64,000 nucleotides of DNA from the human T2T-CHM13v2.0 reference genome, Homo sapiens: the NCBI RefSeq assembly GCF_009914755.1, contig NC_060927.1, one strand, 5' to 3'. Positions 1,487-61,099 of the stretch are shown one piece after another. A model generated the notes under the pieces. It ran no database searches. It saw nothing but the letters and a program-made list of their open reading frames with translations, and was not told where the DNA came from. Position 1 is the stretch's first letter. The number at the start of each line of letters is the position of its first letter. The position numbers were made by a program, and so were the translations under genes.

Positions 1487-1852
<366 letters not shown>

Positions 1853-5382: not shown

Positions 5383-5742
<360 letters not shown>

Positions 5743-7929: not shown

Positions 7930-9135
7930 CAAGTTCTACTTTAGGTACTTCTGTTCAATGGTGTATACAAATAACAAAAGAGACAAAATCCCTAGCCTCA
8001 TAGAGCATATACTCCAGAGGGGGAAGACAAACAACAATAATAGCAAGATGAGTAGACATTCTAGTCATGTTTAAAGGTGATTAGTACTATGAAGAAAACA
8101 CAAGGAAGGGATCTGAGACATGCCTAGTGGTAGGGCAACTGCTACTTAAACTGGAGTAATGGAACTCATGGAGAGTACAATGATGGTTACCAGAGGCTAG
8201 GAAAGGTAGTGGGGGATTTAGGGGATGGGACAAGGAATGACTAATGGGTACAAATAAATAGTTACAAAGAATGAATAAGATTGAATATTTGATAGCACAA
8301 TGGGGTAACTAAATTCAATAATAAATTTAATTGTACATTTTTAAATAATCAAGAGTATACTTGGATTCTTTGTAACACTATGGATAAATGCTTGAGGTGA
8401 AGGAGATCGCATTTACTCTGAAGTAATTATTATACATTGTGTATCTGTATCAAAATATCTCATATAACCCATAAACATATACATCTGCCATGTACCCACA
8501 AAAAATAAAAAAATATAAAGATAAATAATAAATAAATAAATAAATAAGTAAATGAAATACTCGGGGTAAGGTCTTAATGAGAAGACGATGTTTGGACAGA
8601 ATGAAGGTGGGGAGGGAGCAGCCATGAGGCTATTGGGGGATGAGCACTATGAGTTAAGTATAAGATCAGAGCAAGGGCCCCAAGGCAGGAGTATGCTTGC
8701 CATGCTTAAGGAGCAAGGGGTCTGGAATGGGTGAAGAAGATGGAGGCCAGGATCAAAAGGAAGTCAGGAGGAGAGAAGAGTGGATGAAATTGGTGGGGTA
8801 ACAGGACCTGGTTGCATGGGGACAAGTAGGCCAGCTCAAGGGCTCAACTTTTACTCTGAGTGCAATGGCAAAGCATTGGCAGGGCAGCGGAAGAATGGCA
8901 TGCTCTGCCTTATGAATTTAAATGGAAATTATGGTTGCTTTGTTGGTGAGGGTTCAAGATGTTATTGTAATACTATAGGGAAGAGTTAATGGTGGTTTTT
9001 ATTATGTGCTAGTGTGGCGTTGGTGAGAAGAAATTGCATTTAATTTAAAATTATAGCCAGGAGACTTTTCTGGAAGTTTGGAGGCAGAATGCAGAGAAAG
9101 GAAAGAGTCAAGGGTGTCTCTAAGGCTTTGGCTGA
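7930..9135 (-). mobile_element. LINE-2 (L2a-like), interrupted by an L1MA 3' end
   Basis: 'agacaaaatccctagcctcatagagcatatactccag' before the L1. 'ttttactctgagtgcaatggcaaagcattgg...gagtcaagggtgtctctaaggctttggctga' after it. Ends at the first base of the inverted-repeat arm. Confidence 0.75.
8161..8545 (+). mobile_element. L1MA-type LINE-1 3' end with A-rich tail
   Basis: 'atgatggttaccagaggctaggaaaggtagtgg...ggataaatgcttgaggtga...gtatcaaaatatctcat...gtacccacaaaaataaaa'. Confidence 0.9.
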
Positions 9136-9562
9136 TTGTTAAAAGCCCAAGCAATTTCTACCTCAGTGGCTTTTGATGTTATTACTGGATTGCCATAAAA
9201 TAATTGTTCATAATGAGGTTCTAGTTGCTCTTTGGGGAAATTTTAAATTGAAGTTGTTAAAAATAAAAAATCTCCATGCTTTTAAAAAGTACTAGTAATT
9301 ATTCAACATTTTTATTTTGTTGGATAATGGTATTTTCCTGACTGTGTGTCTTCTTTTATTTCCTAGTTGACCATAAGTGTTGTTGAACTTTTCATTGTGT
9401 TGGAAGGGGGAAGGCTAAAGTTGGGGGTAGACTTTGATTCTGACACAACAAATAAATGGATCATGGAGAAAATAAAAAAAACAGGCAAAAGAGAGATTAA
9501 CAAGGAAGGAGTCTCAGAAAGAAAACAGTCAACACGATTCAGAAGTAAGATGTAACTTTATA
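9136..9562. repeat. Left arm of long inverted duplication
   Basis: Reverse complement of 9796-10232. Manual alignment gives about 25 substitutions plus two short indel regions over ~430 bp. Confidence 0.97.
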
Positions 9563-9577
9563 TAAAGAGTGTTACGT

Positions 9578-9782
9578 GGGCTGGGTGTGGTGGCTCACGC
9601 CGGTAATCCCAACACTTTGGGAGGTGAAGGTGGGAAAATCACTTGAGACCAAGAGTTCAAGACCAGCCTATGCAACATTGCGATACCCCATCTCTACAAA
9701 AAATTAAAAATTATTCAGGCATAGTGGTGCATGCCTGTAGTCCCAGCTACTCAGGAGGCTGAGGTGGCAGGATGGCTTGAGC
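9578..9782 (+). mobile_element. 3'-truncated AluJ forming the spacer of the inverted repeat
   Basis: ggctgggtgtggtggctcacgcc...tctctacaaaaaattaaaaatta...ggcaggatggcttgagc, then an abrupt end within the right monomer. No A tail and no 3' TSD. Confidence 0.93.
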
Positions 9783-9795
9783 TGTTGAATGAAAT

Positions 9796-10232
9796 TATGA
9801 AGTTACATCTTACTTCTGAATCGTGTTGAATATTTTCTTTCTGAGATTCCTTCCTTGTTAATTTCTCTTTTGCCTATGTTTTTTTTCTTGTTTTCTCCAT
9901 GGTCCATTTATTTTTTGTGTCAGAATGAAAGCCTACCCCCAACTTTAGCCTTCCCCACTCCAATACAATGAAAAGATCAACAACACTTATGGTCAACCAG
10001 GAAATAAAAGAAGATACATAGTCAGAAAAATACCATTATCCAACATAATAAAAACGTTTAATGTTTACTAGTACTTTTTAAAAGGATGGAGTTTTTTATT
10101 TTTAATTTTAACAACTTCAATTTAAAATTTCCCCAAAGAGCAACTAGAACCTCATTATGAACAATTATTTTATGGCAATCCAGTAATAACATCAAAAGCC
10201 ACTGAGGTAAAAATTGCTTGGGCTTTTAACAA
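9796..10232. repeat. Right arm of long inverted duplication
   Basis: Begins tatgaagttacatcttacttctgaatcg and ends ttgcttgggcttttaacaa. Reverse complement of 9136-9562. Confidence 0.97.
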
Positions 10233-12589
10233 GCATTGCAGCTATGCAAGATTCCTTCTTGCTCATTTCTGATTTCTAGAAACATACCTGTTGATCATTA
10301 GCACTGTTATCTTATTACATAAATAGAACTGATGGATGTATATTTGGAAAAGCCCTGTGTGTTTTTCTCCACCTACTCATTGAAAACAAAGGCTTTAGAA
10401 GGAAAAATATGGAGAATTTGTATTGTAACATCGATATTCTAAGCACAAAAACAAGTGTACCATATAACTGCATTTTTCTAAATTCAACAAAATGGTATTT
10501 TGTGCCATCATTTCATATGTGCCTGCCCTCCTCCTTTTCTTTTTCTCTTTCTCTTTCATTGTCAGTATTTTCCTCATATCTTTCATCCCTGTGACTCCAT
10601 CCTGCAGCTCCTGAATAAAAGTCTCTTTCTCTACACTTAATGTCTCATGTCTGCTTTAGAGTCTTATCCCAGTCCTAAGATCTTCTGAGGAAAAATTTCT
10701 CAGGAATCCCTCTGAACCATCTAGAGCTCACATTGTCTTCCCGTGACTCAGGGGGTAACTCTCCCCAAGCTGCCCTTCCAATTTCTCTTCTACTCATTGA
10801 TTTTTCTTCATGTTGTCAGAGATAGATGTGTCTTATCTCCCCACCTCCATCATGTCTTTTCAAATCTTTTGTTAAGTCCAAGTTTTTTCTCTGAGGGCTG
10901 AGGCTTTTAAAATCAAAAAGCTAGGAAAGAGTTCGTTTTCCTCTAATTTTTGAATTTACATTTTCCCTGTTGTCAGGATACTGAATAACCTGACTTCTGC
11001 CTGATTTCAGAAGGTAAAACAGGATGAAGAGAAGACCAAAGCAGATCTGGAAATATAAGAAAAATATGTAATAATATTTCAAAAATATTAACATTGACTA
11101 CCAGAAATACTACAGATAACATCCTGTACTCGCTTGACTCTTAAATTGCTTGTTTATCAATTCACCAACACCAAGCAATTTCATTTACATTTTGGAGAAT
11201 TATGTATCCTGTTTTCAATATTTTCTTTTACTCATGCATTCTTCATCTATGAAGCTTCCATCTTACGAGATGGAAATTAAATAATTTCTTAAAATTAGAA
11301 ATTAATTTGTTTTATGATCACCTATGAATAGTTAACACATTACTTAAACACAGATCTTCATATTATGTGACAAACAATTTTCTACTTAACACTTCCTTGT
11401 ATGTTTGTATATTAATATAAATAAATTGTCTGCCCTCCAATTAGAAGGAAAGAGTAAATAAGATACTTGTAGTACATGATGAGAGATTATTAGGATACAG
11501 GAGAAAGTGAAGGCAACATCAATGGGAGAAAAAGAATGAGAGGCAGAGAATCAACCCATCTTGGCTGAGCTGCTTCAAGAATGGTAAAACCTTTATTCTT
11601 CTATGATGTTCTGGTGCCTTATAAAGAGGATACTAAATGGGTATGACAGCAGAAATACAGTAAAGACTATAAATGTAATATGCAGGCTGTTTCAGTGTTT
11701 AAAATAGAATGAAAAATTTGGAAATTTATGAACATTTAGAATCTCATTAGTTTCATAAATAACCACAGTCTCAATGAGATCATCAAAACTGCTAGCATAA
11801 TCAGGTTTATACTGATTTACTTTTTAATATTACTCATTTTGACAATGAGGAGCAGTTTCTGAATGAATTATGTGCTGTAGGATGACACTGTATGGAAAGG
11901 AGAACTAGAGTGGGCCTCATATGAGGAGGCGTACTAACTGATACAGTAAAACTTTTTGATATAAAGGAGTTTCCTCTATAAGCTGCTATGGCATTTAATG
12001 CAAAGAAATATGGTTCATTTTTAACATTTTATTATAATATAAAACATCCTTTCAATATGTTTTTAAAAATGCATGTGTGTGAAATTGTTTTATAAATTGA
12101 GAACTTTTCCCCCTGTTGAACCATAATCTCCATTAGTAGAAAAAGAAGATTATGTAGATTTTTTTCTCTATCAAACCCTCAGGAACATTCCTCTTCCAGA
12201 CATCAAAGCCTTTCTCTCATCATACTGCTCTTAATAGGCCTCAATATTGTTAGCTTTTAAAATGAAAGTATTGAGAAGTTCATTTATATTCTTCTTATAA
12301 TCAACTTTATCTTATTTATGTCTAGACATCCATTTAAAAAAAAAATAAGCAGACAGCATTGCCAAAAGAAACGAAGCAGGCGAAATAGCCTAAATTGTCC
12401 TTATGTCTCCTTTCTAGTCAATTTATTTCTCTACCCAGGTTTCTGATGGGTATCTGTGTTTGTGCAGGAACTCTGACTGTATCTACTTCAGCTGAACGCT
12501 CACTTATCTGAGTCTAATAATGTCAGGGCCCTAGATGCAAATAGGATGGAGAAGACTGGAAGAGAGATTGTGTTAGTCACATCACGCAT

Positions 12590-12860: not shown

Positions 12861-15800
12861 ATAAAAGTATTCAAACAGTGTACATCAAAGAAGGCAGCTC
12901 AAGACATGCTGTAAATATGAGATAATAATAACTTTTGATATTAAGTTGAAAGCTACAAGATATCAACAGTGTCTTTAGATAAGTTCAATAAGCTTTTCAG
13001 AGTATAGCTTCAACTGTGCTTATGATTCATATCTAATGCAGAATAACAAGAGAAATTCATGGGAAAAAATATGCCACCTACAAGGAACAGATTTGCACAA
13101 TACTCCTTATCATTAGTAAACAGAAAATGTCAGAACAGGTGTATACTTTTGAAACAAAAGAATTCAATACCATATACAAAACAAACAATGGCAAGAACAA
13201 CAACAAAAAACTGATATCAAATGTATCCCCAATTTGTTACTAATTACTAATTACTTAGTAATTAGTAATACTAAGTGCAGATGCTTTTCTAAACACTTTT
13301 TACTCATTTTCTTACTTCATCTGTATTGCAACCCTAGAAGAAATAGTTATATGAGTTTCATTTTTATAAAAATAATTAGCGTGATAATTATTCTTCAGTT
13401 ATCTTTACTTTCACAGCATAACCCATTTTTTCCTACTTATCATTACATTATTAAATGCTTTAATGAAGTACAAATCAATTTTGTTAGAAATTGCCAATCT
13501 AAAAAGAAAAAGATTACTTGCTCTAAATTGATACAACCCGGGATATATCTGTATCTTGGAACATTTTGTGGTATAAATAAATTTTAAAAATGCTGACAGA
13601 GAAATCTCTACAGCAAACTATAGACAAGTTTTGTGTATTTGTGTTGTGTGACTGTGCATAGAGAGGAAGAAATATGTGGTAGTAACATGACAATCACTAA
13701 GCCCAGAATATTTTCATATGCAGAGGTTCATGAATTTCCTTGGGATTAAAGTAAATGTGTTGTGAATTCTACCATTCCTTTTGTTTTATTTTCAAGTGCT
13801 AACATTTGCCTATCCCTAAATAGTTTTTGTTTGTTTGTTTAGTTGGGAGAATTTGGGTATACAATTTATATCAGTATTTTTGTTGTTATTGTTGCTATTT
13901 GGGTGCTTTGTGTATGGTATTAGATTCCTTTGTTTTAAGAGTATATACCTCTTCTGATATTATCTGTTTAGTAATGATCACGTGTATGGTCAACTCTTCT
14001 CCTTTTAGGTGATGTAAAATTTTTCCATGAATTACTCTTTGTCATTCTGCGTTAGATATAAATCTTAACAATTTTTAAAGCTATAGTCTGAGAAGTTTAT
14101 TGAACTCATCTTAAGACTTTTTTGTATCCCATATCTTTCTGTTTAATATCAAAAGTTCAACCTTTGATCATGCATTTTTACTTTCAGAAGATGTGTAGTA
14201 ATTTTCTCACCAACTCCACATCTTTTGAGATGTGTTTTCATCATGAATGAGTTTATTTTGACATCCAGATAGCATTTGCTGAAATGTGAATGGTGTGTTC
14301 TCTGCTACTTAATTTTCTAAGGTCATCCCTCCAGCTTTCTAAAATTTGTCATTTATTCATCTGTCTTTAAGCTTGCAATTGGAAATTTGGGAACAAAGTG
14401 GAATTGTACAAGCAGCAGGACTGAAAATACAAATATTCTTCCTCTTGTTCCTTGTCATATTGGAAATATTCTATGATTCAATGAAGAACACTTTGAGATA
14501 CAGAATAAGGGGTTATGGTAAATATAGTGAATATTCAATCATTGTGTTCTTTAAATGTATTTATAATACATACAAAAATACAACAAAGAAAATATTTTAT
14601 TATTTCCCTTTCTCATGGTAAGAACAGCTAGATTCTTTAGTGGGGCATTTTTATTAAAATGAGTAAGAAATATATCAAGTGCCATGGTACAGAATATTTA
14701 CTATCTTGGATGTCTGATGTTGCTCTGGCACTAAGATAAAAAGAATTAGAGCATTTTTTTTTATTGACTAGTTTCCTAAGCTAGGGTCCTCCATGCTATC
14801 AGTGTGCATACTCAGGGAACAAATGTAATTTCATATGTGACACCATTTACCGTATGTTATAATTTGACAAGCTTAGTGAGAACTTGGTTCATGAAAAGCA
14901 AACATTCATAACTTTCTTTCTTGGAAGCCTCATTACAAAATTACATATAATATAGGCATTAGATTTAGAATTTAAATAAGAGAGGAATTTAATATCAACT
15001 AAAACAAGCATAAAAGAACATTTTGAAAAGTAATTACCCAGAAATCTTGAAACTGGAAAAGAAAGAATGTAGGTCAAAATTGGAGGTCCTAATGTACAGT
15101 GAGTCATTCAGCTGGGAAGAAACCCGAGAGGTGAGGCAAAAACTGGGTAGGGGCAATGGTGGTGGAGGTGATAGAAAAGAACCTAAGATAAAAATCTAGT
15201 CAAGGGGTCTAACATTCATTGAGAAACTATGTGTAGTGAGGAAAGGAACTACCTATGTCTGAACATGAAGCAAACCAGTTGTAGGTTGAGCTTCATTTTT
15301 CTCAACGGCAAACAGTTTTCATATGTTTTCAGGATTGAAGAGTAAAACTCTTAAGGATATCCTTGGTATTATTAGATGTCATCTTACAATATTTATCATC
15401 TTAATGACATGTTTAAATAAGTATGTTTTATAAAATATATTTGTTGAGAAATAGAATTTTATTTCTATGTTCCTATTTCATGGAAAGGTTATTCAGAATT
15501 CTCATATACATCTTTGGCATCAGAGACTTGTCATCAATACACCCATGTGTTGAGTCATTTAACATGTGTTTCTCAGAGCACGTCTTCACATCCATTTAGG
15601 TTCTTTGAGACGCTGCAGCACTCTCACATTTGTCTATGATGCAAATTTTAATGCAAACCCAAAGTACCCATTTGCTTTGCATGGTCTTCACCAGACAGTC
15701 AGTTAATATATTTCTTAAAGGATCTTTTAAAAACTCGACAACCAACACTTGCAATTATCCAGGCATATGCTTATGACTAAGCCCATGTTAAATTCTGTTT

Positions 15801-32686: not shown

Positions 32687-33528
32687 ATATATATATACAC
32701 ATATATAGTATAAATATACACATATACACACATATAGTATATATACACATATATACACATATATACATATATAGTATATATACACATATATACATATATA
32801 GTATATATACACATATATACATATATAGTATATATACACATATATACATATATAGTATATATACACATATATACATATATAGTATATATACACATATATA
32901 CATATATAGTATATATACACATATATACATATATAGTATATATACACATATATACATATATAGTATATATACACATATATACATATATAGTATATATACA
33001 CATATATACATATATAGTATATATACACACATATACACATATATACATATATAGTATATATACACACATATACACATATATACATATATAGTATATATAC
33101 ACACATATACACATATATACATATATAGTATATATACACGTATATACATATATACATATATAGTATATATACACGTATATACATATATACATATATAGTA
33201 TATATACACGTATATACATATATACATATATAGTATATATATACACGTATATACATATATACATATATAGTATATATATACACGTATATACATATATACA
33301 TATATAGTATATATACACGTATATACATATATACATATATGTATATATACACGTATATACATATATGTATATATACACATATATACATATATACATATAT
33401 AGTATATACACATATATACATATATGTATATATATACACATATATACATATATACATATATGTATATATATACACATATATACATATATACATATATAGT
33501 ATATATATACACATATATACATATATAT
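32687..33528. repeat. TA-rich compound minisatellite (27-bp and 35-37-bp units)
   Basis: About ten copies of tatatacacatatatacatatatagta, followed by longer variants, some containing cacgta. Confidence 0.97.
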
Positions 33529-41042: not shown

Positions 41043-41394
<352 letters not shown>

Positions 41395-42186
41395 TGCTAT
41401 ATTTTAAACTCAGGTTTTCATGGTTGGTTCTTCTGCTCTCATGTTTTCCTATATTCCTCTACTATTCTTTTTACCTCTTACTCTTTCTCATTTCAATACA
41501 CCTGATTTAAAGTAAAATTCGGTTTATGAAGAGATCTTCCACACTGGCATTATTTAATAGAAGCATGTAAACTCAGTCTTCAATAAGTACTTTCTCTCAA
41601 ATTGTCTAACATGTAGGCAAACCAATTTAAAGAAAAGCTTTTTATGTGTTCCAGTATAGAGCAGTGATAAAAGCCGGTCTGTACCATCAGAAATAATGAA
41701 CAATTTTCGTGAAGCAAACTCTAATGTCAAAGTGGATGAACTCACAGATATTACCCTTATCTCATTTTAATATGCATAGGTATACAAAATATGCATACGT
41801 AGGTGTTATATTGTCTTCAACACCTCGACCAGTGAACAGTACAATCATCCATTATGACTTCTGTGTGAGGGCAAAGAGAGGCGACCTAGGATATTCATAT
41901 GGGCTGAGCCTAATTTGGCTCCTGCCCTAAATAATGGTAGCATGAGGAAAACATTTGGAAATGTTTAGGGGGAATAAAGATAAAAGCAACATTATTAGTC
42001 TGTTTATATTATTTTGGTGTTCAAAAAATTCGCCTGTTGAAAAGCATTATTTACAAATGATGCCATTGTGTTTCCTGTTTCTCAGGAAGATAAAGAAGAA
42101 TCCATATGTGTATATGTGGATATACACACACATATACACAATTTTAAATAAAAATGCTCATTTTAAAAAATTATTCTGAATATAAC

Positions 42187-42551
42187 TTACATGGTTTGGC
42201 TCCGTGTCCCCACCCAAATTTCACCTTGAATTGTAATCCCCATAATCCCCGCATGTCAGGGGAAGGACCACATGGAGGTAATTGAATCATCATGGGAGCA
42301 GTTTCTCCCGTGATGTTCTCGTGATAATGCACGAGATCTGATGGATTTATAAACATTTGGCATTTCCCCTGCTTGCACTCACTCCATCCTGCCACTCTGT
42401 GAAGAAGGTTTCTCCTTTGCCTTCCACCATGATTGTAAGTTTCCTGAGGCCTCTCAACCATGCAGAACTGTGAGTCAATTAAACCTCTTTCCTTTATAAA
42501 TCTCCCAGTCTTGGGTATTTCTTCATAGAAATGTGAGAATGGAATAACACA
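42187..42551 (+). mobile_element. THE1C/D MaLR solo LTR
   Basis: atggtttggctccgtgtccccacccaaat...gtgagtcaattaaacctctttcctttataaat...ggaataacaca. TSD ataac/ataat. Confidence 0.93.
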
Positions 42552-43198
42552 ATAATCAACTTATCTTTTATGTATATGAGGTCACACACCTCCTCCTGTT
42601 ACTTTGCTAACTTGTCACCCTCTCACTTAGCCTCACTCTCCCTTTCTCCTAACACTGCTTTAGTTTCCTTTTACTTCTCTATTATCTCCTCTGACCAAAA
42701 AATCTTTGCATAAATTTTAAAGACACACTCTTCATACACTTTATCTTCATTGTGCAACACACAAAGATCTATTGGACTTCAGCAATAAACAAAGAAATCC
42801 ATCCTGCCAAATGTAAGTGACAGCATATGCTTTCTTTTAAGACAAGGAGACTTAGGACTTGATTAGATTTAATTGATGTTAAATCTAGGGGTGAAATTTT
42901 GCTTTAAGCCATTGTCCAAATACAAGAGAGTACTTTACAGTATAATACTTAAGGATAATTCTAAGTATTTTAGGGCCATGAGTCTCTATGGGGCATATTT
43001 TTGGTCAAAGGAGAACTTGCATTCTCCTGAGTTAATGATTTTTTTTTTTAATCAATGCAATGACTGTTGCAGTCAGTAGTCAATAAAATAAAGTTTATTT
43101 TTACACAACTTTATATTTGTAAAGCTACTCTTTAAAACAATCTTACCATGCCTAAAGCCTCTGCAGTTTTGCGCTGAGCATCTTTTATTATTTCTTAT

Positions 43199-43568
43199 TT
43201 TATTATTCTGTTCTCATGCTGCTAATAAACACATGCATGAGACTATGTCATTTATAAAGGAAAGAGGTTTAATTGACTCACAGTTCAGCATGGTCGGGAG
43301 GCCTCAGGAAACTTACTATCATGCCAGAATGGGAAGAAAACACATCCTTCTTCACATAGCAACAACAAGGAGAAGTGCAGAGTGAAGAGAGGAATGCCCC
43401 TTACAAAACCATCAGATCTTGTGAGAACTCACTATCATGTGGGCAGCATGGGGGTAACCAACCCCATGATTAAACTACCTCCCACCAGGTTCATCCCACA
43501 ATACGTGGGGATTATGGGAACTACAATTCAAGATGAGATTTGGGTGGGGACACAACCAAGCCATATCA
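43199..43568 (-). mobile_element. THE1C-like MaLR solo LTR
   Basis: ttctcatgctgctaataaa...gagatttgggtggggacacaaccaagccatatca. TSD cttat/cctat. Confidence 0.93.
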
Positions 43569-44609
43569 CCTATATTTTAAACATTTACAGATACTATATT
43601 CCCATCATATGTGTATCACAAATCAGGATGGGAACTGCATATTTGCTAAGATTATTATTCAATGAAAAACTGAGTTTTTATTTGTTTATGTTTTTATTAG
43701 GTGCCTTTATCTACTTAGTTATTTTAAATACGAAAGGAGCTAGGTAGGTAGTACAACAGGCAGGCTCACAATGATTGAACTGGTGAAGATATAGATACGA
43801 AGGACTAAGTAACATCTAGTGGTCCAATTGGAGTTGATCAATATGATAAAGAAAAAATAAATATTTCTTAAGCTTCCATAACACTTAAGTAATGAATAAT
43901 AATTTCAGAATAAAGACCACAATTATTTAAGTGAAATCTGAAATGCGAGTTAAAGTGTACACTTGTTTAACTCTCATAATAGTTTTTATTTTTATTTTCA
44001 TTTGCTTTGTTAATGCTGCCATCAGAAAAATAAGGGTGTGACTAGTAGGCCGACATGTACATTCAAAAAGGGCTGTGCGTACTGGACAGGCAATGATACT
44101 ACTGACCTTAAAATAGTGTACTTATTCAGAGATGCTTTTCCTGAAGTGAGAAAACACTGGAGCTAGTTCTTCCCACTCTTGTCCTCAATCTTTCTGTTGA
44201 ATCAAAGCAAACATTCATGAAATAATTGTCTATAGAACAGAGAAAAGTCTACTGGGTCACAATGAACTTTATACAACACCATTGATACTAACTTATATGT
44301 CATAAACAATAAAACAAGAAAAAGATTTAAACCCTCTTAAATACCTTTTCTTAAATCCTCTTATGGACAAATTTCTTGAAAACTGTTGGTTACGCTTAGT
44401 ATCTTCATTTGATCACTTCCCAAAACATTGCCTTCTGCTTTCTCTTTTCATTTTTTCAGTTAGCAAAGTCCCTCAGGCATATGTTGATCAGTCCTCCTGG
44501 ATATGCTTCTGATCTTTTATAAACCTTATTTTCCTGCAACATTTGAGCTGTGAAAATAATCTTAATTTTTTTCTTGCCTTTAGATATGTGATTCCCTCTA
44601 ATAATCAAC

Positions 44610-46236: not shown

Positions 46237-46524
46237 GCCGAGTGAGATGGCTCATGCCTATAATCTCAGCACTTTGGGAGGCTGAGGCGGGCGGATCACG
46301 AGGTCAGGAGATCGAGACCATCCTGGCTAACACAGTGAAACCCCATCTCTACTAAAAATACAAAAATTAGCCTGTAGTCCCAGCTACTTTGGAGGCTGAG
46401 GCAGGAGAATCGCTTGAACCCAGGAGGTGGAGGTTTCAGTGAGCCAAGATCGTGCCACTGTACTCCAGCCTGGGCGACAGAATGAGACTCAGTCTCAAAA
46501 AAAAAAAAGAAAAAAAAAAGAAAA
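46237..46524 (+). mobile_element. AluSc8-like element with ~19-bp internal deletion and 21-bp TSD
   Basis: 'aaaattagcctgtagtcccagc' lacks the start of the right monomer. TSD aagaaata(c/t)actccatttctt at 46216-46236 and 46525-46545. Confidence 0.95.
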
Positions 46525-55487: not shown

Positions 55488-55860
<373 letters not shown>

Positions 55861-58796
55861 AGTTGAGTGTTATGTTTAAGAATTGTTAACTTATTTTGTA
55901 TCTCCTGATCCATTTAGCATTTGTGTTTTCACAACCAAGTTATAAGAGGACCTTAATATAAGAACAGTATTTTTGTTAAATGAGGTTCTTGAGAGAACAA
56001 AAAAATATTTTAAAAACAACCAAAACATGATGTATGCTATTTGATTCAGGTGTCTATGTCTCTGTTGAATTAACTAATTTTGTAGATTAAGTTGACAGTT
56101 TTCACTAAGGACAAATATATGCCAAAATGAAGGGTCAAAATACTTGATATTGTTTATCTTATGAGACTTTTATACTTTATTATTGAAAAATTGTGTCTTA
56201 AATATTCTTAACATCTTGTTTTTTGTTTGTTCCTCTTCACTGTTTTAAATCTGGTTCTTCCTTCAAAAAAGTTTTGCTTATTTTTAGGAACTAAAGAATA
56301 GTGAGAGGACTTAAGTTCCTCTTAAATAGCTCACAAAATTTGATCATTGACCCTCCAAAACTACCAACTAACTCACTTCCTCTCAAACATGCAAAGCCTC
56401 AACCTCTGCCTGTCTCTCTAGGTATATCTCGGGTGATTATTGCTCTTAGAGAGCAAGCACTCATGTGCAGTGTGCACTGATCCACTGCTATGGCCACATT
56501 TAATCTTTAGCGCAGGAAGAGAGATGGAGAAAACCATTGCCACCACTCATCATCCAATCAAGAGATAGCAAGGCTTGAATGATGTTATTTTCGAAAGCAG
56601 AGTGATGCTTTGGGATCAGTGTTAAAACATGCATCATCCTAGTCTCTTTCAACAATACTTATTTCAAAGATCTCTCTTTACTACTTCGCTTATTGCTTTT
56701 ATGCTCTAAGGTTACATCATAGCCTATCACAGAGGTAAGAGTGGCCATAATTTTAGAATTTTCTTCTTTATGTCCTATGTGATAGTGTGCTGGATTCTTG
56801 GTGGTTAGACAGTGAAGGCACCATGGAACATTTGAGGGAGGGACAGCTCTTAACTAACTGAGGTCAACAGGAGTCAAGACTCAGTTCACTTGATTCTGAA
56901 CTTGATAATTCCTAATGTATTCAAAAAAGGTTTGACCATTCTTTCTCTAAGTATATGACAGATGGCAACATTGAAGGAATAATGGCAACTGCTCAGTCTG
57001 CTATTTAAAGATAGGACCAGGAGAGTTATTTTTTCAGGATATTGAATCATTGCTCTTCATTAAAATGTATTTCATGGCAATAAATTAAGAACATTATTTC
57101 TGCATAACTCCTGAAACTAACTTAGATGGTTTTCAACCACTGGTGTTAGTTAGAGAGAACTAAACTTGGCAGCCAAAGAAAAACTAGCAATTCAAGATCA
57201 CTGTTCACAGAGTAGAGGAAAAAAGGGAGCCTATTTGAAGGATTTTTATTGGAAGAATTGTGGGTACGAATGGGGAAAAAGCTAAAAATACGCACAGAAG
57301 CACCAAAAAGAGATATCAAGGATGGGTTTCAGAGGTGTGCTGTAAATGTTTACCAACATGCTCTATGGAGAAAATCATTGAGCTGTGGTGTTTGCCAACT
57401 TCCCTAGTTAAAATACACCCTCTGTGGTCAGTTTCAAGCTGCCAACCTATGTCACTGAGCATGAATTGAGACGAGTTTCACCTACTTGATGCTCTGGAGC
57501 TGGTGTGAGCCAACTCCAGCACATTAAGCTTTTACTTGGATTTCAAATGTTCATTCTCTTATTAAAAATAGGTGTAAAAGGTCTAAATGCATCTTTGACA
57601 TGTTTGACTATAAACTATGTTTTGCTTTTATCACAGTTGTTTAGTCAGAATTGAATTTACCTTATTTTCCTGGCCACTGAAAAGTCTCTATTAAAATGGA
57701 TGTTGATGCAAGATTTATTGGACAAGGAAGAAAAGGTAAAATACTTTCAAAATCACAGAACTGCATCTACCTAAAAAGGCTTAGGTAGGGCTTATACTTA
57801 ATATTCAAAAAATGTTAATTATATGCCTATTTTTCCCTTTAAGGTGCATAAATATGGCATAGTCCTGTCATTTCAGGTCTTATTTTAGGGGTTTAATAGT
57901 CAGATATATCTGTTCTGGATCACCATCTGTTTTATCTTCATACATATAATCCTTATGTATTTTACTTATAATTTTAAAAAGTCTTAAGATGTGATACTAA
58001 TATATCTTTAAGGTTTTTATGATTTAAATTTTCCATATATTTTCTCAGTGAAGAATTAGTCTTTCTTTTTGGCCTTCCATCTTGACCATGAACAAATGCA
58101 TGAGACTTAAGTTACCTTGGTCATTCTACTGTCAAAAGGGCCCCTGCAAATGCCAGCCATTGTTTTAAGATGGTGCATTTACTTTAGATGATGAACACCT
58201 TTTGAGAGCTTCTATTTACTATCCAATATGGTAAACAGTGTAGCTGATTAAAAGATAAGTAAGATGTCTCAGTTACTATAACCTTAATTGGATTAGAATC
58301 AAGTAAGGGAGAGAGATATTTACACAAATGATAAGAGGAAGTAAACACTAGAAGGAGAGGAAGAAAATAATAAATGTAACTTGCTTGGAAAAGTAGCCAG
58401 CTTCTAAGATTCCCAACTGAAAGTTTTGTTTCTTTTAAATCCTGTCATATGCTTGTTTGATAAGAATGACTCCTCTGAAATCTAGGATGGTGGTGAGCTT
58501 AGCCAGACCCAGTGTTATTTTAAAATAAGCTCTCGATGATATGACCAATGTATATTAAAAATCCTTGTAGATGGTAAACAAGATCCATACTGTACCATCT
58601 GGGCTGTTTTCTTCCTGGTCATTACACTCTCTCCTAAAGTATCTAATTACTTTGCGGACTCCTTAGTAAGCTTCTCTTTCTTTACCCATCCTTCAGATGT
58701 TGATTCATACAAAGCAAGGCACATAGTAGGTTCTCTATATAGTAGGTCATCTATGTAATTATTGAATTAAGGCCAAGATTTTTAAATTTTAAAAAA

Positions 58797-59880: not shown

Positions 59881-60652
59881 ATGAGATTTTCGCAAGCATC
59901 ACTGCTCTTTTTCCACTTATTTAAAGAAGCAAACAGTCTTATTTATGTACTGGTTGATCATCAAAATGTCATCTGGGCTGAACCATGTATATTTTTATTA
60001 GCAATTGCGTGCTTTTTATTGCTTAAAGAATAACTCCCTGATTGCTCAATTTATGCATTATATCAATATCAGGGACCCAAGAAAAGTGTTTTGAAACCAT
60101 TTGGAGCTTCATATTTCTGAGCTCCTAATCTCTGGTAATTATTTCTTCTTTCTGTCTTACATCATGTTTTCTCTGATGTGGTTTTTCGCCTCACCTCACT
60201 TCACAAGATTGATAGTTCTCCATGTCACCTTGCTAGAGGTCACCTCTGAGCTGAAGGCAAAACACATCCCACTGTGGCTCCTGTTGACTTTCAAGTCAAC
60301 TATCCAGGAATTTATTCCAGACATTTTCTAACCTCAATTTAAAAACTCCACCCTAAAAATTACAGGGCGATGGCAACTCTGAGAGGTTGGCATTGAGGAG
60401 ACAAAGCCTCTGATATCAGATTTTTTACTTGATAGGCTTAATTTTGTAAGGTGATCACGAACCTCTATGCTTGTGTCATTTAGGTGTGGAAAGAAATTTT
60501 CCCCTTCAGAATCTTCTGTCTCTTATGGTGCCAATCAACACACTTCTGGGTAATAAGATTTTTTTTTCCAGTGGGGGAACAGCGCTTATCAAGCATTTTA
60601 TTTATTGAGCCACAAATAGCCTGTATTTGCACAATAAGAAAATTACTTCTCT

Positions 60653-60958
<306 letters not shown>

Positions 60959-61099
60959 AAGAAAATTACCTGTCCAAAGCAGAAGTGCCCAGTTTTAGGA
61001 AAATCTTTTTGTTACATAGCAATAAACATTCTCTTCTATAAAGTTAGGTGGAAACTTGTTATTTTTTGGATAGAAACCATCTGAGTTTTAGAACTTTAT

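What the first reader, a model, noticed from the sequence alone, without database searches (positions are those of the whole stretch)
9136..10232. ~1.1-kb fold-back of apparently unique DNA: two ~430-bp inverted arms around a truncated Alu
Seen: 9136-9562 is the reverse complement of 9796-10232 at over 90% identity by manual alignment, with only a ~233-bp spacer. The arms resemble no transposon I recognise and there is no TSD, so this looks like a local inverted duplication rather than a MITE or an inverted Alu pair. Known: long, closely spaced inverted repeats are unstable, and when transcribed they form long dsRNA that ADAR, Dicer/Drosha, PKR or MDA5 can act on. Inference: this locus could act as a hairpin-RNA or endo-siRNA source, an editing hotspot, or a splicing-modulating stem. 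The ~8% inner divergence suggests it has persisted a long time.
Basis: partly seen in the sequence, partly recalled or inferred. Interest (0 to 1): 0.85.

Follow-up and report, generated by a model that had tools for sequence, protein, structure and literature searches.

The report
Old local inverted duplication in CADM2 intron
A 1.1-kb stretch inside an intron of the brain gene CADM2 is a real fold-back of unique DNA, most likely a tens-of-millions-of-years-old copying accident that now sits there harmlessly, though its RNA would fold into a long hairpin.

Summary
Arms 9133-9562 and 9796-10235 are reverse complements, 403 of 441 aligned columns identical. They flank a 233-nt spacer holding the first ~200 nt of an old Alu with no 3' part and no A tail.

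The arms are not a transposon. In the 3.1-Gb genome each arm finds only itself and its partner. The same search recovers 77-85% identical copies of two nearby repeat families. Both flanks are unique, and there is no outer target-site duplication.

The best reading is a local inverted duplication made by a replication template switch or fold-back. The inner end of the left arm falls exactly on a perfect 12-nt palindrome. A second, older unique inverted repeat (about 79%) lies 2.7 kb downstream.

Arm divergence is uneven: 1.6% over the outer 124 nt and 7.9% over the inner part. This suggests later gene conversion.

Both strands fold into one long hairpin. The arm differences show no bias towards keeping RNA pairs (8 against 7 wobble-compatible transitions), and no known RNA family matches the arms.

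RNA roles such as editing or small RNAs could not be tested here. It is an ordinary though uncommon neutral relic.

The parts
9133..9562 (.). Left arm (430 nt). It is probably the ancestral copy, because it continues without a break into the 5' flank and intact 5' end of the Alu.
   Evidence: alignment to the right arm. (only two genomic copies). Which arm is ancestral is inference.
9133..9256 (.). Outer high-identity block of the arms (partner 10112-10235): 2 substitutions in 124 columns. It is bounded by the 6-nt indel.
   Evidence: Against 24 in 305 inner columns, Fisher p=0.013 for a split chosen after seeing the data. In the change-point scan, 67 of 2000 permutations reach the observed value.
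9556..9567 (.). Perfect 12-nt palindrome CTTTATATAAAG, centred at 9561|9562, which is the inner end of the left arm. Read another way, a 7-nt direct repeat (TATAAAG at 9561-9567, TATGAAG at 9796-9802) brackets the spacer.
   Evidence: 48 of 63960 centres in the window have a half-length of 6 or more. Sequence.
9563..9795 (+). Single-copy spacer. It holds about 15 nt of unique flank, an Alu from its intact 5' end (about 9578) to about position 200 (about 9782), and then 13 nt (TGTTGAATGAAAT) of unknown origin.
   Evidence: Junction words occur once in the window. In the genome the 3' junction word occurs once, and the 5' word has one other hit with 3 mismatches on contig C2, judged to be chance.
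9796..10235 (.). Right arm (440 nt), the reverse complement of the left arm and probably the derived copy.
9423..9661 (.). RefSeq 'silencer' feature from the hub table. It covers the inner 140 nt of the left arm, the palindrome junction and the first ~84 nt of the Alu. It holds only one arm, so it says nothing about the hairpin.
   Evidence: Hub annotation only. Its source experiment was not seen.
12911..14181 (.). Neighbouring second unique inverted repeat. Its arms are about 12930-13235 and 13850-14157 (78.8% over 311 columns, spacer 614). A 32-nt near-palindrome (13237-13268) sits at the inner end of its left arm. It is not part of the finding but bears on how the finding arose.

Best explanation
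This is a fixed, local inverted duplication of unique intronic DNA and is selectively neutral. It most likely arose when a replicating or repairing strand left its template inside a resident old Alu, at about Alu position 200 (window about 9782). After a 13-nt filler it copied the 430 nt just upstream in reverse, starting at a small palindrome (9561|9562) and running to 9133. It then returned to the original template at 10236, losing the Alu 3' part and whatever followed it. In the four-point template-switch scheme this is the 3-2-1-4 pattern; it can equally be called a fold-back with a single-copy spacer. The arms have since diverged by about 8% in the inner part. The outer 124 nt were probably homogenised later by arm-to-arm gene conversion. 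As DNA it persists because a 233-nt spacer and about 8% mismatch make hairpin or cruciform extrusion unlikely. As RNA it is transcribed only as part of the sense CADM2 intron. There it should fold into a ~430-bp imperfect duplex that nuclear ADARs would edit promiscuously before the intron is degraded. No dedicated function is proposed. Shown here: the structure, its uniqueness in the genome, the truncated Alu, the palindrome at the junction, the uneven divergence, and the lack of pairing-directed substitution. Inferred: which arm is ancestral, the switch mechanism, gene conversion, the age, editing, and neutrality. The confidence given is for the whole statement: that it is a local, non-transposon inverted duplication I hold at about 0.85, the one-step switch history at about 0.55, and neutrality at about 0.8.
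For: Only two copies exist in 3.1 Gb, with either arm as query, even at E<=10. The same tool finds 39 copies at 77-80% identity of a family at about 8149-8543, from 8515 first-look candidates of which 40 were scored. It also finds copies at 82-85% identity of the family forming the inverted pair at 42179-43576. A transposon family as young as the arm identity implies would therefore have been seen. Both flanks are single-copy. There is no outer TSD. The Alu has an intact 5' end but lacks its 3' third and A tail; retrotransposition does not produce this, but a breakpoint does. A 12-nt perfect palindrome sits exactly at the arm/spacer junction, and such palindromes occur at 48 of 63960 centres, so roughly 1% is expected within 3 nt of either inner edge. 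A second unique inverted repeat 2.7 kb away also has a near-palindrome at its inner edge. These two are the only single-copy inverted repeats among 22 rows (arms >=200 nt, spacer <=2 kb) in 264 kb of contiguous sequence. Published precedents, read as passages: single-copy spacers and 2-8 bp of inverted microhomology or inserted bases at human fold-back junctions (PMC3907307); template switching at short inverted repeats, with later enlargement of spacers (PMC10766186); the 3-2-1-4 pattern giving single inverted repeats in apes (PMC7954356). On stability, replication stalling in eukaryotic cells was lost when the spacer grew from 12 to 52 bp (PMC7999016). On neutrality, 15 transitions split 8 (G:U on + RNA) to 7 (G:U on - RNA). 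There is no Rfam hit in the arms above noise, and no stop-to-stop ORF longer than 64 aa lies within the arms.
Against: No other primate genome was available, so the pre-duplication state, the polarity and the age are all untested. The 13-nt filler has no identified template. No clear microhomology is readable at either switch point. The palindrome admits a different history: a zero-spacer palindrome that was interrupted later. The divergence gradient is only modestly significant and its split was chosen after seeing the data (p=0.013; scan 67 of 2000). Diverged copies below about 75% identity could escape the word-based first look of the genome search, and no Dfam or RepeatMasker library was at hand. 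A RefSeq silencer overlaps the inner left arm, so some regulatory activity of the sequence cannot be dismissed. The wobble test has little power (n=15).
Confidence: 0.6

Rival explanations
1. Two-step history. A snap-back at the short palindrome first made a zero-spacer 430-nt perfect palindrome centred on CTTTAT|ATAAAG. This unstable structure was then stabilised when a ~228-nt fragment (10 nt, Alu 1-200, 13 nt) was inserted at its centre with a 7-nt duplication.
For: The spacer is bracketed by TATAAAG / TATGAAG. Removing the spacer and one copy of this repeat restores a perfect palindrome across the centre (sequence). This explains the 12-nt palindrome without any coincidence. Insertions in palindrome spacers, and secondary events that enlarge spacers, are described (PMC4057610; PMC10766186).
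Against: No source locus was found for the inserted fragment. The 3' junction word occurs only here. The single other hit of the 5' word (3 mismatches) is an Alu that is only 172/202 identical, with indels, and looks like a different subfamily. This history needs two events. The Alu 5' flank also reads like an ordinary A-rich target site native to the locus (recalled preference, not tested).
Confidence: 0.2
2. A non-autonomous DNA transposon or MITE with long terminal inverted repeats, into which an Alu later inserted.
For: It is palindromic overall. TTAA lies 6 nt inside each end. NCBI's mask is not a sensitive repeat annotation: the multi-copy family at about 8149-8543 is absent from the hub's list of the longest masked stretches, although one search shows it to be multi-copy.
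Against: There are 0 further copies in the genome with either arm as query, while the same search finds families at 77-85% identity. There is no TSD. The repeat runs 6 nt past the TTAA, so TTAA is not a target duplication. The Alu lacks its A tail and second TSD.
Confidence: 0.03
3. A functional long-hairpin RNA locus, kept because its duplex serves as an ADAR sink, an endo-siRNA or miRNA precursor, or a regulator of CADM2 pre-mRNA or chromatin.
For: It lies in the sense direction inside a gene that the hub table shows spanning the window. The predicted hairpins are very stable (-726 and -700 kcal/mol). The outer 124 nt are nearly identical. A RefSeq silencer overlaps it (hub table). Non-repetitive predicted dsRNAs are short as a rule, with medians of 75-144 bp (PMC11838218). 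Template-switch hairpins in introns have given rise to primate miRNAs (PMC10710096, abstract).
Against: There is no strand bias in pair-preserving substitutions (8 against 7). Four indels and 11 transversions interrupt the stem. No Rfam family matches the arms; sn1185 at E=0.82 is noise. Both strands fold alike, as any inverted repeat must. No exon lies within 47 kb. No expression or editing data were seen. The one paper linking CADM2 with editing that I opened gives no sites (PMC12238832).
Confidence: 0.07
4. An assembly or read artefact, that is, a fold-back chimera.
For: None, beyond the general fact that fold-back chimeras occur in single long reads (recalled).
Against: The arms differ at 26 substitutions and 4 indels, whereas a chimeric fold-back would be identical. 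The spacer holds a distinct, old Alu.
Confidence: 0.01

Closest known systems
Template-switch (four-point model) and fold-back inverted duplications in primate and human genomes (PMC7954356, PMC3907307, PMC10766186)
   Same: A reverse-complement copy of the sequence just upstream, a single-copy spacer, a short palindrome and inserted bases at the junction, and loss of sequence at the return point.
   Different: The copy (430 nt) is much longer than the tens to hundreds of nucleotides of short-range events, and far smaller than the kb-to-Mb pathogenic fold-back duplications. It is old and sits in the reference rather than being de novo. The ancestral state is not available.
Inverted Alu pairs (IRAlus), the main ADAR substrates in human introns and UTRs
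   Same: An intramolecular duplex of about 300-430 bp in a transcribed intron, with a short loop. Promiscuous A-to-I editing is expected.
   Different: The arms are unique sequence with no Alu similarity. The Alu forms the loop, not the stem.
Non-repetitive predicted dsRNAs of the human dsRNAome (dsRNAscan, PMC11838218)
   Same: It falls in that class by definition: the arms do not overlap annotated repeats, it is intronic, and it lies in a neuronal gene.
   Different: At about 430 bp it is much longer than the class medians (75 bp unedited, 144 bp edited). At about 93% paired it misses the paper's 'long, highly paired' class (>300 bp and >96% paired).
hpRNA / endo-siRNA hairpin loci of Drosophila and mouse oocytes (recalled, not read here)
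   Same: A long inverted duplication of unique sequence that folds into a several-hundred-bp hairpin.
   Different: No small RNAs, no target gene related to the arms, and no evidence of constraint. Human somatic cells process long dsRNA poorly (recalled).
MITEs / palindromic DNA transposons
   Same: Overall symmetry and size.
   Different: No family, no TSD and no recognisable termini.
Palindromic AT-rich repeats (PATRRs) and sex-chromosome palindromes
   Same: AT-rich arms (31-32% G+C), and possible arm-to-arm gene conversion.
   Different: A 233-nt spacer and 8% divergence, against near-perfect PATRRs without spacers. The arms are 430 nt, against kb-to-Mb arms at >99% identity in sex-chromosome palindromes.

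Membership tests
DNA transposon / MITE | Multiple dispersed copies of the element or of its terminal repeats | tested here: not met
   With the left or the right arm as query, the genome returns only the two arms, even at E<=10. The search finds other families at 77-85% identity.
DNA transposon / MITE | Target-site duplication flanking the element | tested here: not met
   The longest shared word in the 30-nt outer flanks is 4 nt, and none abuts both ends.
DNA transposon / MITE | Match to a curated repeat consensus (Dfam/Repbase) | not testable with these tools
   No repeat library is available. NCBI's mask covers only the Alu (hub table).
Inverted Alu pair | Both arms are Alu elements | tested here: not met
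   Alu similarity is confined to 9584-9783 in the spacer. The arms are single-copy.
Template-switch / fold-back inverted duplication | The inverted copy derives from adjacent local sequence, and both copies are otherwise unique | tested here: met
Template-switch / fold-back inverted duplication | Single-copy spacer between the arms | tested here: met
   The 233-nt spacer is not duplicated locally.
Template-switch / fold-back inverted duplication | Short inverted homology, microhomology or inserted bases at the junctions | tested here: inconclusive
   There is a perfect 12-nt palindrome at the inner edge of the left arm and a 13-nt filler at the other inner junction. No readable microhomology is present at the outer junction.
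Template-switch / fold-back inverted duplication | An ancestral state without the copy in outgroup species | not testable with these tools
   No other primate genome is held. The genome tool states that it has no relatives here.
hpRNA / endo-siRNA or miRNA precursor | Small RNAs mapping to the stem | not testable with these tools
   No expression data are available.
hpRNA / endo-siRNA or miRNA precursor | Evolution that preserves pairing on the transcribed strand | tested here: not met
   Of 15 transitions, 8 are wobble-compatible on + RNA and 7 on - RNA. There are also 11 transversions and 4 indels. Power is low.
Known RNA family (Rfam 15) | Covariance-model match at or above gathering score | tested here: not met
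   There are 5 hits at E<=1 in 8000-11500, and all are below gathering score. Four rest on the Alu. The only one confined to an arm is sn1185 at E=0.82.
Long, highly paired dsRNA (putative MDA5 substrate class of PMC11838218) | >300 bp and >96% of nucleotides paired | tested here: not met
   The length is met at about 430 bp. Pairing is (403+8)/441 = 93% counting G:U. The longest perfect run is 98 bp, 9159-9256.
Segmental duplication | >=1 kb at >=90% identity (recalled definition) | tested here: not met
   The arms are 430 and 440 nt.

The most novel reading that the evidence does not exclude
The two neighbouring unique fold-backs mark a template-switch hotspot in this very long, AT-rich neuronal gene. 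The older one is about 79% identical. The younger has outer arms kept near-identical. The younger one would supply a primate-specific ~430-bp nuclear hairpin in CADM2 pre-mRNA that is heavily A-to-I edited in neurons and contributes to local repression, in line with the RefSeq silencer on its inner arm, or to small-RNA production.
Probability: 0.06. Interest if true: 0.6.

Novelty: new member of a known kind. Interest (0 to 1): 0.3.

Why it matters
If the reading is right, the locus is a clean, datable natural example of a mid-sized (0.4-kb) inverted duplication. Its size falls between the short template-switch events catalogued in apes and the large pathogenic fold-back duplications. Its junction features are still legible: a palindrome, a filler and a truncated Alu. 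It also illustrates how unique-sequence hairpins enter introns of neuronal genes, and how a spacer lets them persist. It does not by itself open a new question. Its value would rise only if editing, small RNAs or regulatory activity specific to the duplex were found.

Tried and rejected
- Transposon origin: rejected on copy number and TSD.
- TTAA near the ends as a piggyBac-type target duplication: rejected, because the repeat runs 6 nt beyond it.
- Capture of the spacer from another locus: the only other hit of the 5' junction word (contig C2, 3 mismatches) has an Alu that is 172/202 identical, with indels, and a different subfamily look. I judged it to be chance. The 3' junction word is unique.
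- Templated origin of the 13-nt filler: no second copy in the window at up to 3 mismatches. It shares the 8-mer TGTTGAAT with the right arm about 40 nt away, but I did not test this against chance.
- Coding potential: 17 stop-to-stop ORFs of 40 aa or more overlap 9000-10400, and none within the arms exceeds 64 aa. They were not searched further.
- Profile search with both arms: the tool takes protein alignments only.
The base rate therefore rests on 264 kb.
I could not check whether the locus is listed in the dsRNAscan tables.
- Literature: 'CADM2' with 'inverted repeat' gave 6 papers (5 listed), none on this locus by title or abstract. 'CADM2', 'A-to-I' and 'intron' gave 2 papers; the one I opened names CADM2 only in a gene list.
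- The Lobachev inverted-Alu paper is not held; it is only cited by others.
- The silencer search was seen as a listing only, so the source of the RefSeq silencer feature remains unverified.

Full report
**1. The observation**

The repeat finder reports three collinear inverted segments between 9133 and 10235. A gapped alignment joins them into one pair of arms, 9133-9562 and 9796-10235. The alignment has 441 columns, of which 403 are identical, with 26 substitutions and four indels of 6, 1, 3 and 2 nt (MAFFT agrees). The spacer is 9563-9795 (233 nt).

The inverted local score is 692. The maximum in 100 shuffles of the same 2.4 kb is 29. Of 24 other 2.4-kb pieces of the window, 23 scored at most 29, and the exception is a second inverted repeat.

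In the whole window the three segments of this pair include the two longest inverted matches within 5 kb. The other listed pairs are Alu-sized or lie in a simple repeat.

The estimates of 'over 90%' overall and '~8% inner divergence' are also right.

**2. The spacer**

Alu similarity runs from about 9578 to about 9782.
- Rfam gives only sub-threshold SRP and Alu-related hits there.
- Aligned to eight masked Alu-sized pieces of the window, the spacer matches seven of them at 77-83% identity.
- In every case the match covers only the first ~195-200 nt of the other element.

So the 5' end is intact, while the last third and the A tail are missing. That is the opposite of what retrotransposition truncates, and it points to a breakpoint.

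By recalled diagnostic positions the element looks like an old (AluJ-type) copy. I did not test this.

Between the Alu end and the right arm lie 13 nt (TGTTGAATGAAAT) with no second copy in the window.

**3. Not a transposon**

The assembly holding the window (3.1 Gb, 24 contigs) could be searched.
- The left arm finds itself and the right arm (91%) and nothing else. This holds even at E<=10, and the first look raised only 2 candidates.
- The right arm gives the mirror result.

The search is not blind to old repeats.
- A 6.5-kb query around the locus raised 8515 first-look candidates. The 40 that were scored yielded 39 copies, at 77-80% identity, of a ~375-nt family at about 8149-8543.
- The inverted pair at 42179-43576 proved to be two members of an ~370-nt family with 11757 candidates. 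Each arm is closer to copies elsewhere (82-85%) than to its partner (72%).

An element whose two ends are still 92% alike would belong to a young family, and its other copies would be at least that similar. None exists.

The flanks 8545-9140 and 10228-10900 are single-copy too. The outer flanks share no direct repeat longer than 4 nt. The TTAA near each end lies inside the repeat, not at its edge.

Caveats: no Dfam library was available, and copies below about 75% identity could be missed.

**4. How it arose (inference)**

The left arm runs without a break into an A-rich ~15-nt flank and the intact 5' end of the Alu, as at an ordinary Alu insertion site. The right arm is joined to a truncated Alu through a filler.

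The simplest history has four steps:
- An Alu was already resident just downstream of the future left arm.
- A nascent strand left its template at about Alu position 200.
- After 13 extra nucleotides it copied the upstream 430 nt in reverse complement, from 9562 to 9133.
- It then resumed at 10236, deleting the rest of the Alu and what followed.

This is the '3-2-1-4' order of the four-point template-switch model, reported to give single inverted repeats in great apes (PMC7954356, passages). It also has the architecture of human fold-back duplications. In that study all 21 sequenced junctions had a single-copy spacer; 13 showed 2-8 bp of inverted microhomology and 5 had inserted bases (PMC3907307, passages).

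One new detail supports a hairpin-guided switch. A perfect 12-nt palindrome, CTTTATATAAAG, is centred at 9561|9562, exactly where the copy begins. Only 48 of 63960 centres in the window carry a perfect palindrome of that size. One within 3 nt of either inner edge is therefore expected about 1% of the time.

The same fact can be read differently. The spacer is bracketed by a 7-nt direct repeat, TATAAAG at 9561-9567 and TATGAAG at 9796-9802. Deleting the spacer would leave a zero-spacer perfect palindrome. In that reading the spacer was inserted later and stabilised the structure, as proposed for secondary events at palindromes (PMC10766186; PMC4057610).

I looked for a donor of such an insert.
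- The 3' junction word is unique in the genome.
- The 5' junction word has one other hit, with 3 mismatches.
- Its Alu is only 172/202 identical, with indels, so I take it as chance.

I put the one-step history ahead of the two-step one. Only outgroup genomes can decide between them.

**5. A neighbour**

A second inverted repeat lies 2.7 kb downstream.
- Its arms are about 12930-13235 and 13850-14157, 78.8% identical over 311 columns, with a 614-nt spacer.
- It too is unique in the genome.
- It carries a 32-nt near-palindrome (13237-13268) at the inner end of its left arm.

I fetched 200 kb downstream and scanned 264 kb of contiguous sequence. The scan gave 22 inverted-repeat rows with arms of at least 200 nt and spacers of at most 2 kb. 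Only these two had no other local copy. All the rest had self-hit depths of 4 or more and are Alu-type or simple repeats.

Two such events within 5 kb in 264 kb would happen by chance about 4% of the time. This is my own rough, post hoc estimate. It hints at a locally switch-prone sequence context but does not establish one.

**6. Age and later history (inference)**

Divergence is uneven: 2 substitutions in the outer 124 columns against 24 in the inner 305.
- Fisher p=0.013, for a split at the 6-nt indel chosen after seeing the data.
- In an unbiased change-point scan, 67 of 2000 permutations reach the observed value.

The inner 7.9% (about 8.3% corrected) is of the order of the human-macaque distance, by recalled values. 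That suggests an origin some 20-40 million years ago if the arms evolved independently. The near-identity of the outer block then suggests a later gene-conversion or arm-correction event. The neighbour, at about 21% divergence, is much older.

**7. What it does**

As DNA: longer arms, higher identity and shorter spacers make palindromes dangerous. In eukaryotic cells, replication stalling at inverted Alus disappeared when the spacer grew from 12 to 52 bp, and the single-stranded zone at the fork is only 100-200 nt (PMC7999016, passages). With a 233-nt spacer, 8% mismatch and a longest perfect run of 98 bp (9159-9256), this repeat should be stable. That fits its persistence.

As RNA: the hub table places it in a CADM2 intron on the sense strand, 47 kb from the nearest listed exon. 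Both strands fold into one long hairpin, at -726 and -700 kcal/mol, as any inverted repeat must. Counting G:U pairs, about 93% of columns pair. That is long for a non-repetitive predicted dsRNA, where medians are 75-144 bp. It is below the '>300 bp and >96% paired' class that the dsRNAscan study found to be rare, with 2,018 of 5.1 million predictions, 88% of them intergenic (PMC11838218).

I expect promiscuous nuclear A-to-I editing in neurons and nothing more. The expectation of editing is inference.

The test I could run for selection on the duplex was negative. Of 15 transitions between the arms, 8 keep a G:U pair on the + RNA and 7 on the - RNA. In addition there are 11 transversions and 4 indels. 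No Rfam family matches the arms, and there is no meaningful ORF.

The RefSeq silencer (9423-9661) contains one arm only, so it does not bear on the hairpin. I did not see its source.

**8. Verdict**

The structural interpretation is supported. The functional suggestions are untested, and the one available indirect test shows no signal.

This is a new example of a known kind of event. It is somewhat unusual in size and in the legibility of its junctions, and mildly interesting for having an older twin next door.

Literature searches found nothing on this locus.

Noticed in passing
window 12911-14181: A second unique inverted repeat lies 2.7 kb downstream. Its arms are about 12930-13235 and 13850-14157, 78.8% identical, with a 614-nt spacer. 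It is single-copy in the genome and has a 32-nt near-palindrome (13237-13268) at the inner edge of its left arm.
   Followed up: partly
window 42179-43576: An inverted pair (72% identical, spacer 639) made of two members of a multi-copy ~370-nt family. There were 11757 first-look candidates, and the best other copies are 82-85% identical. This is an ordinary inverted transposon pair and was used as a contrast.
   Followed up: yes
window ~8149-8543: A multi-copy ~375-nt interspersed repeat, with 39 scored copies at 77-80% identity. It is absent from the hub's list of the longest masked stretches, so 'unmasked' in NCBI's file does not mean unique. Its family name was not determined.
   Followed up: partly
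window 32687-33528: An ~840-nt AT-dinucleotide-rich tandem array with periods 2, 27 and 37. It is its own reverse complement at about 73-76%. AT-rich tracts of this sort are recalled as fragile-site features. It was not examined further.
   Followed up: no
window 1563-1851 / 5384-5669; 41105-41382 / 46248-46506; 55545-55862 / 60651-60965: Three inverted Alu pairs, 77-83% identical and 3.5-4.9 kb apart. They are the usual intronic substrate for editing.
   Followed up: no
L023 (G000:C2:11173300-11174200): An Alu on another chromosome whose 13-nt 5' flank nearly matches the flank of the spacer Alu, while the Alu itself is only 172/202 identical. I judged this a coincidence of A-rich target sites.
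   Followed up: yes
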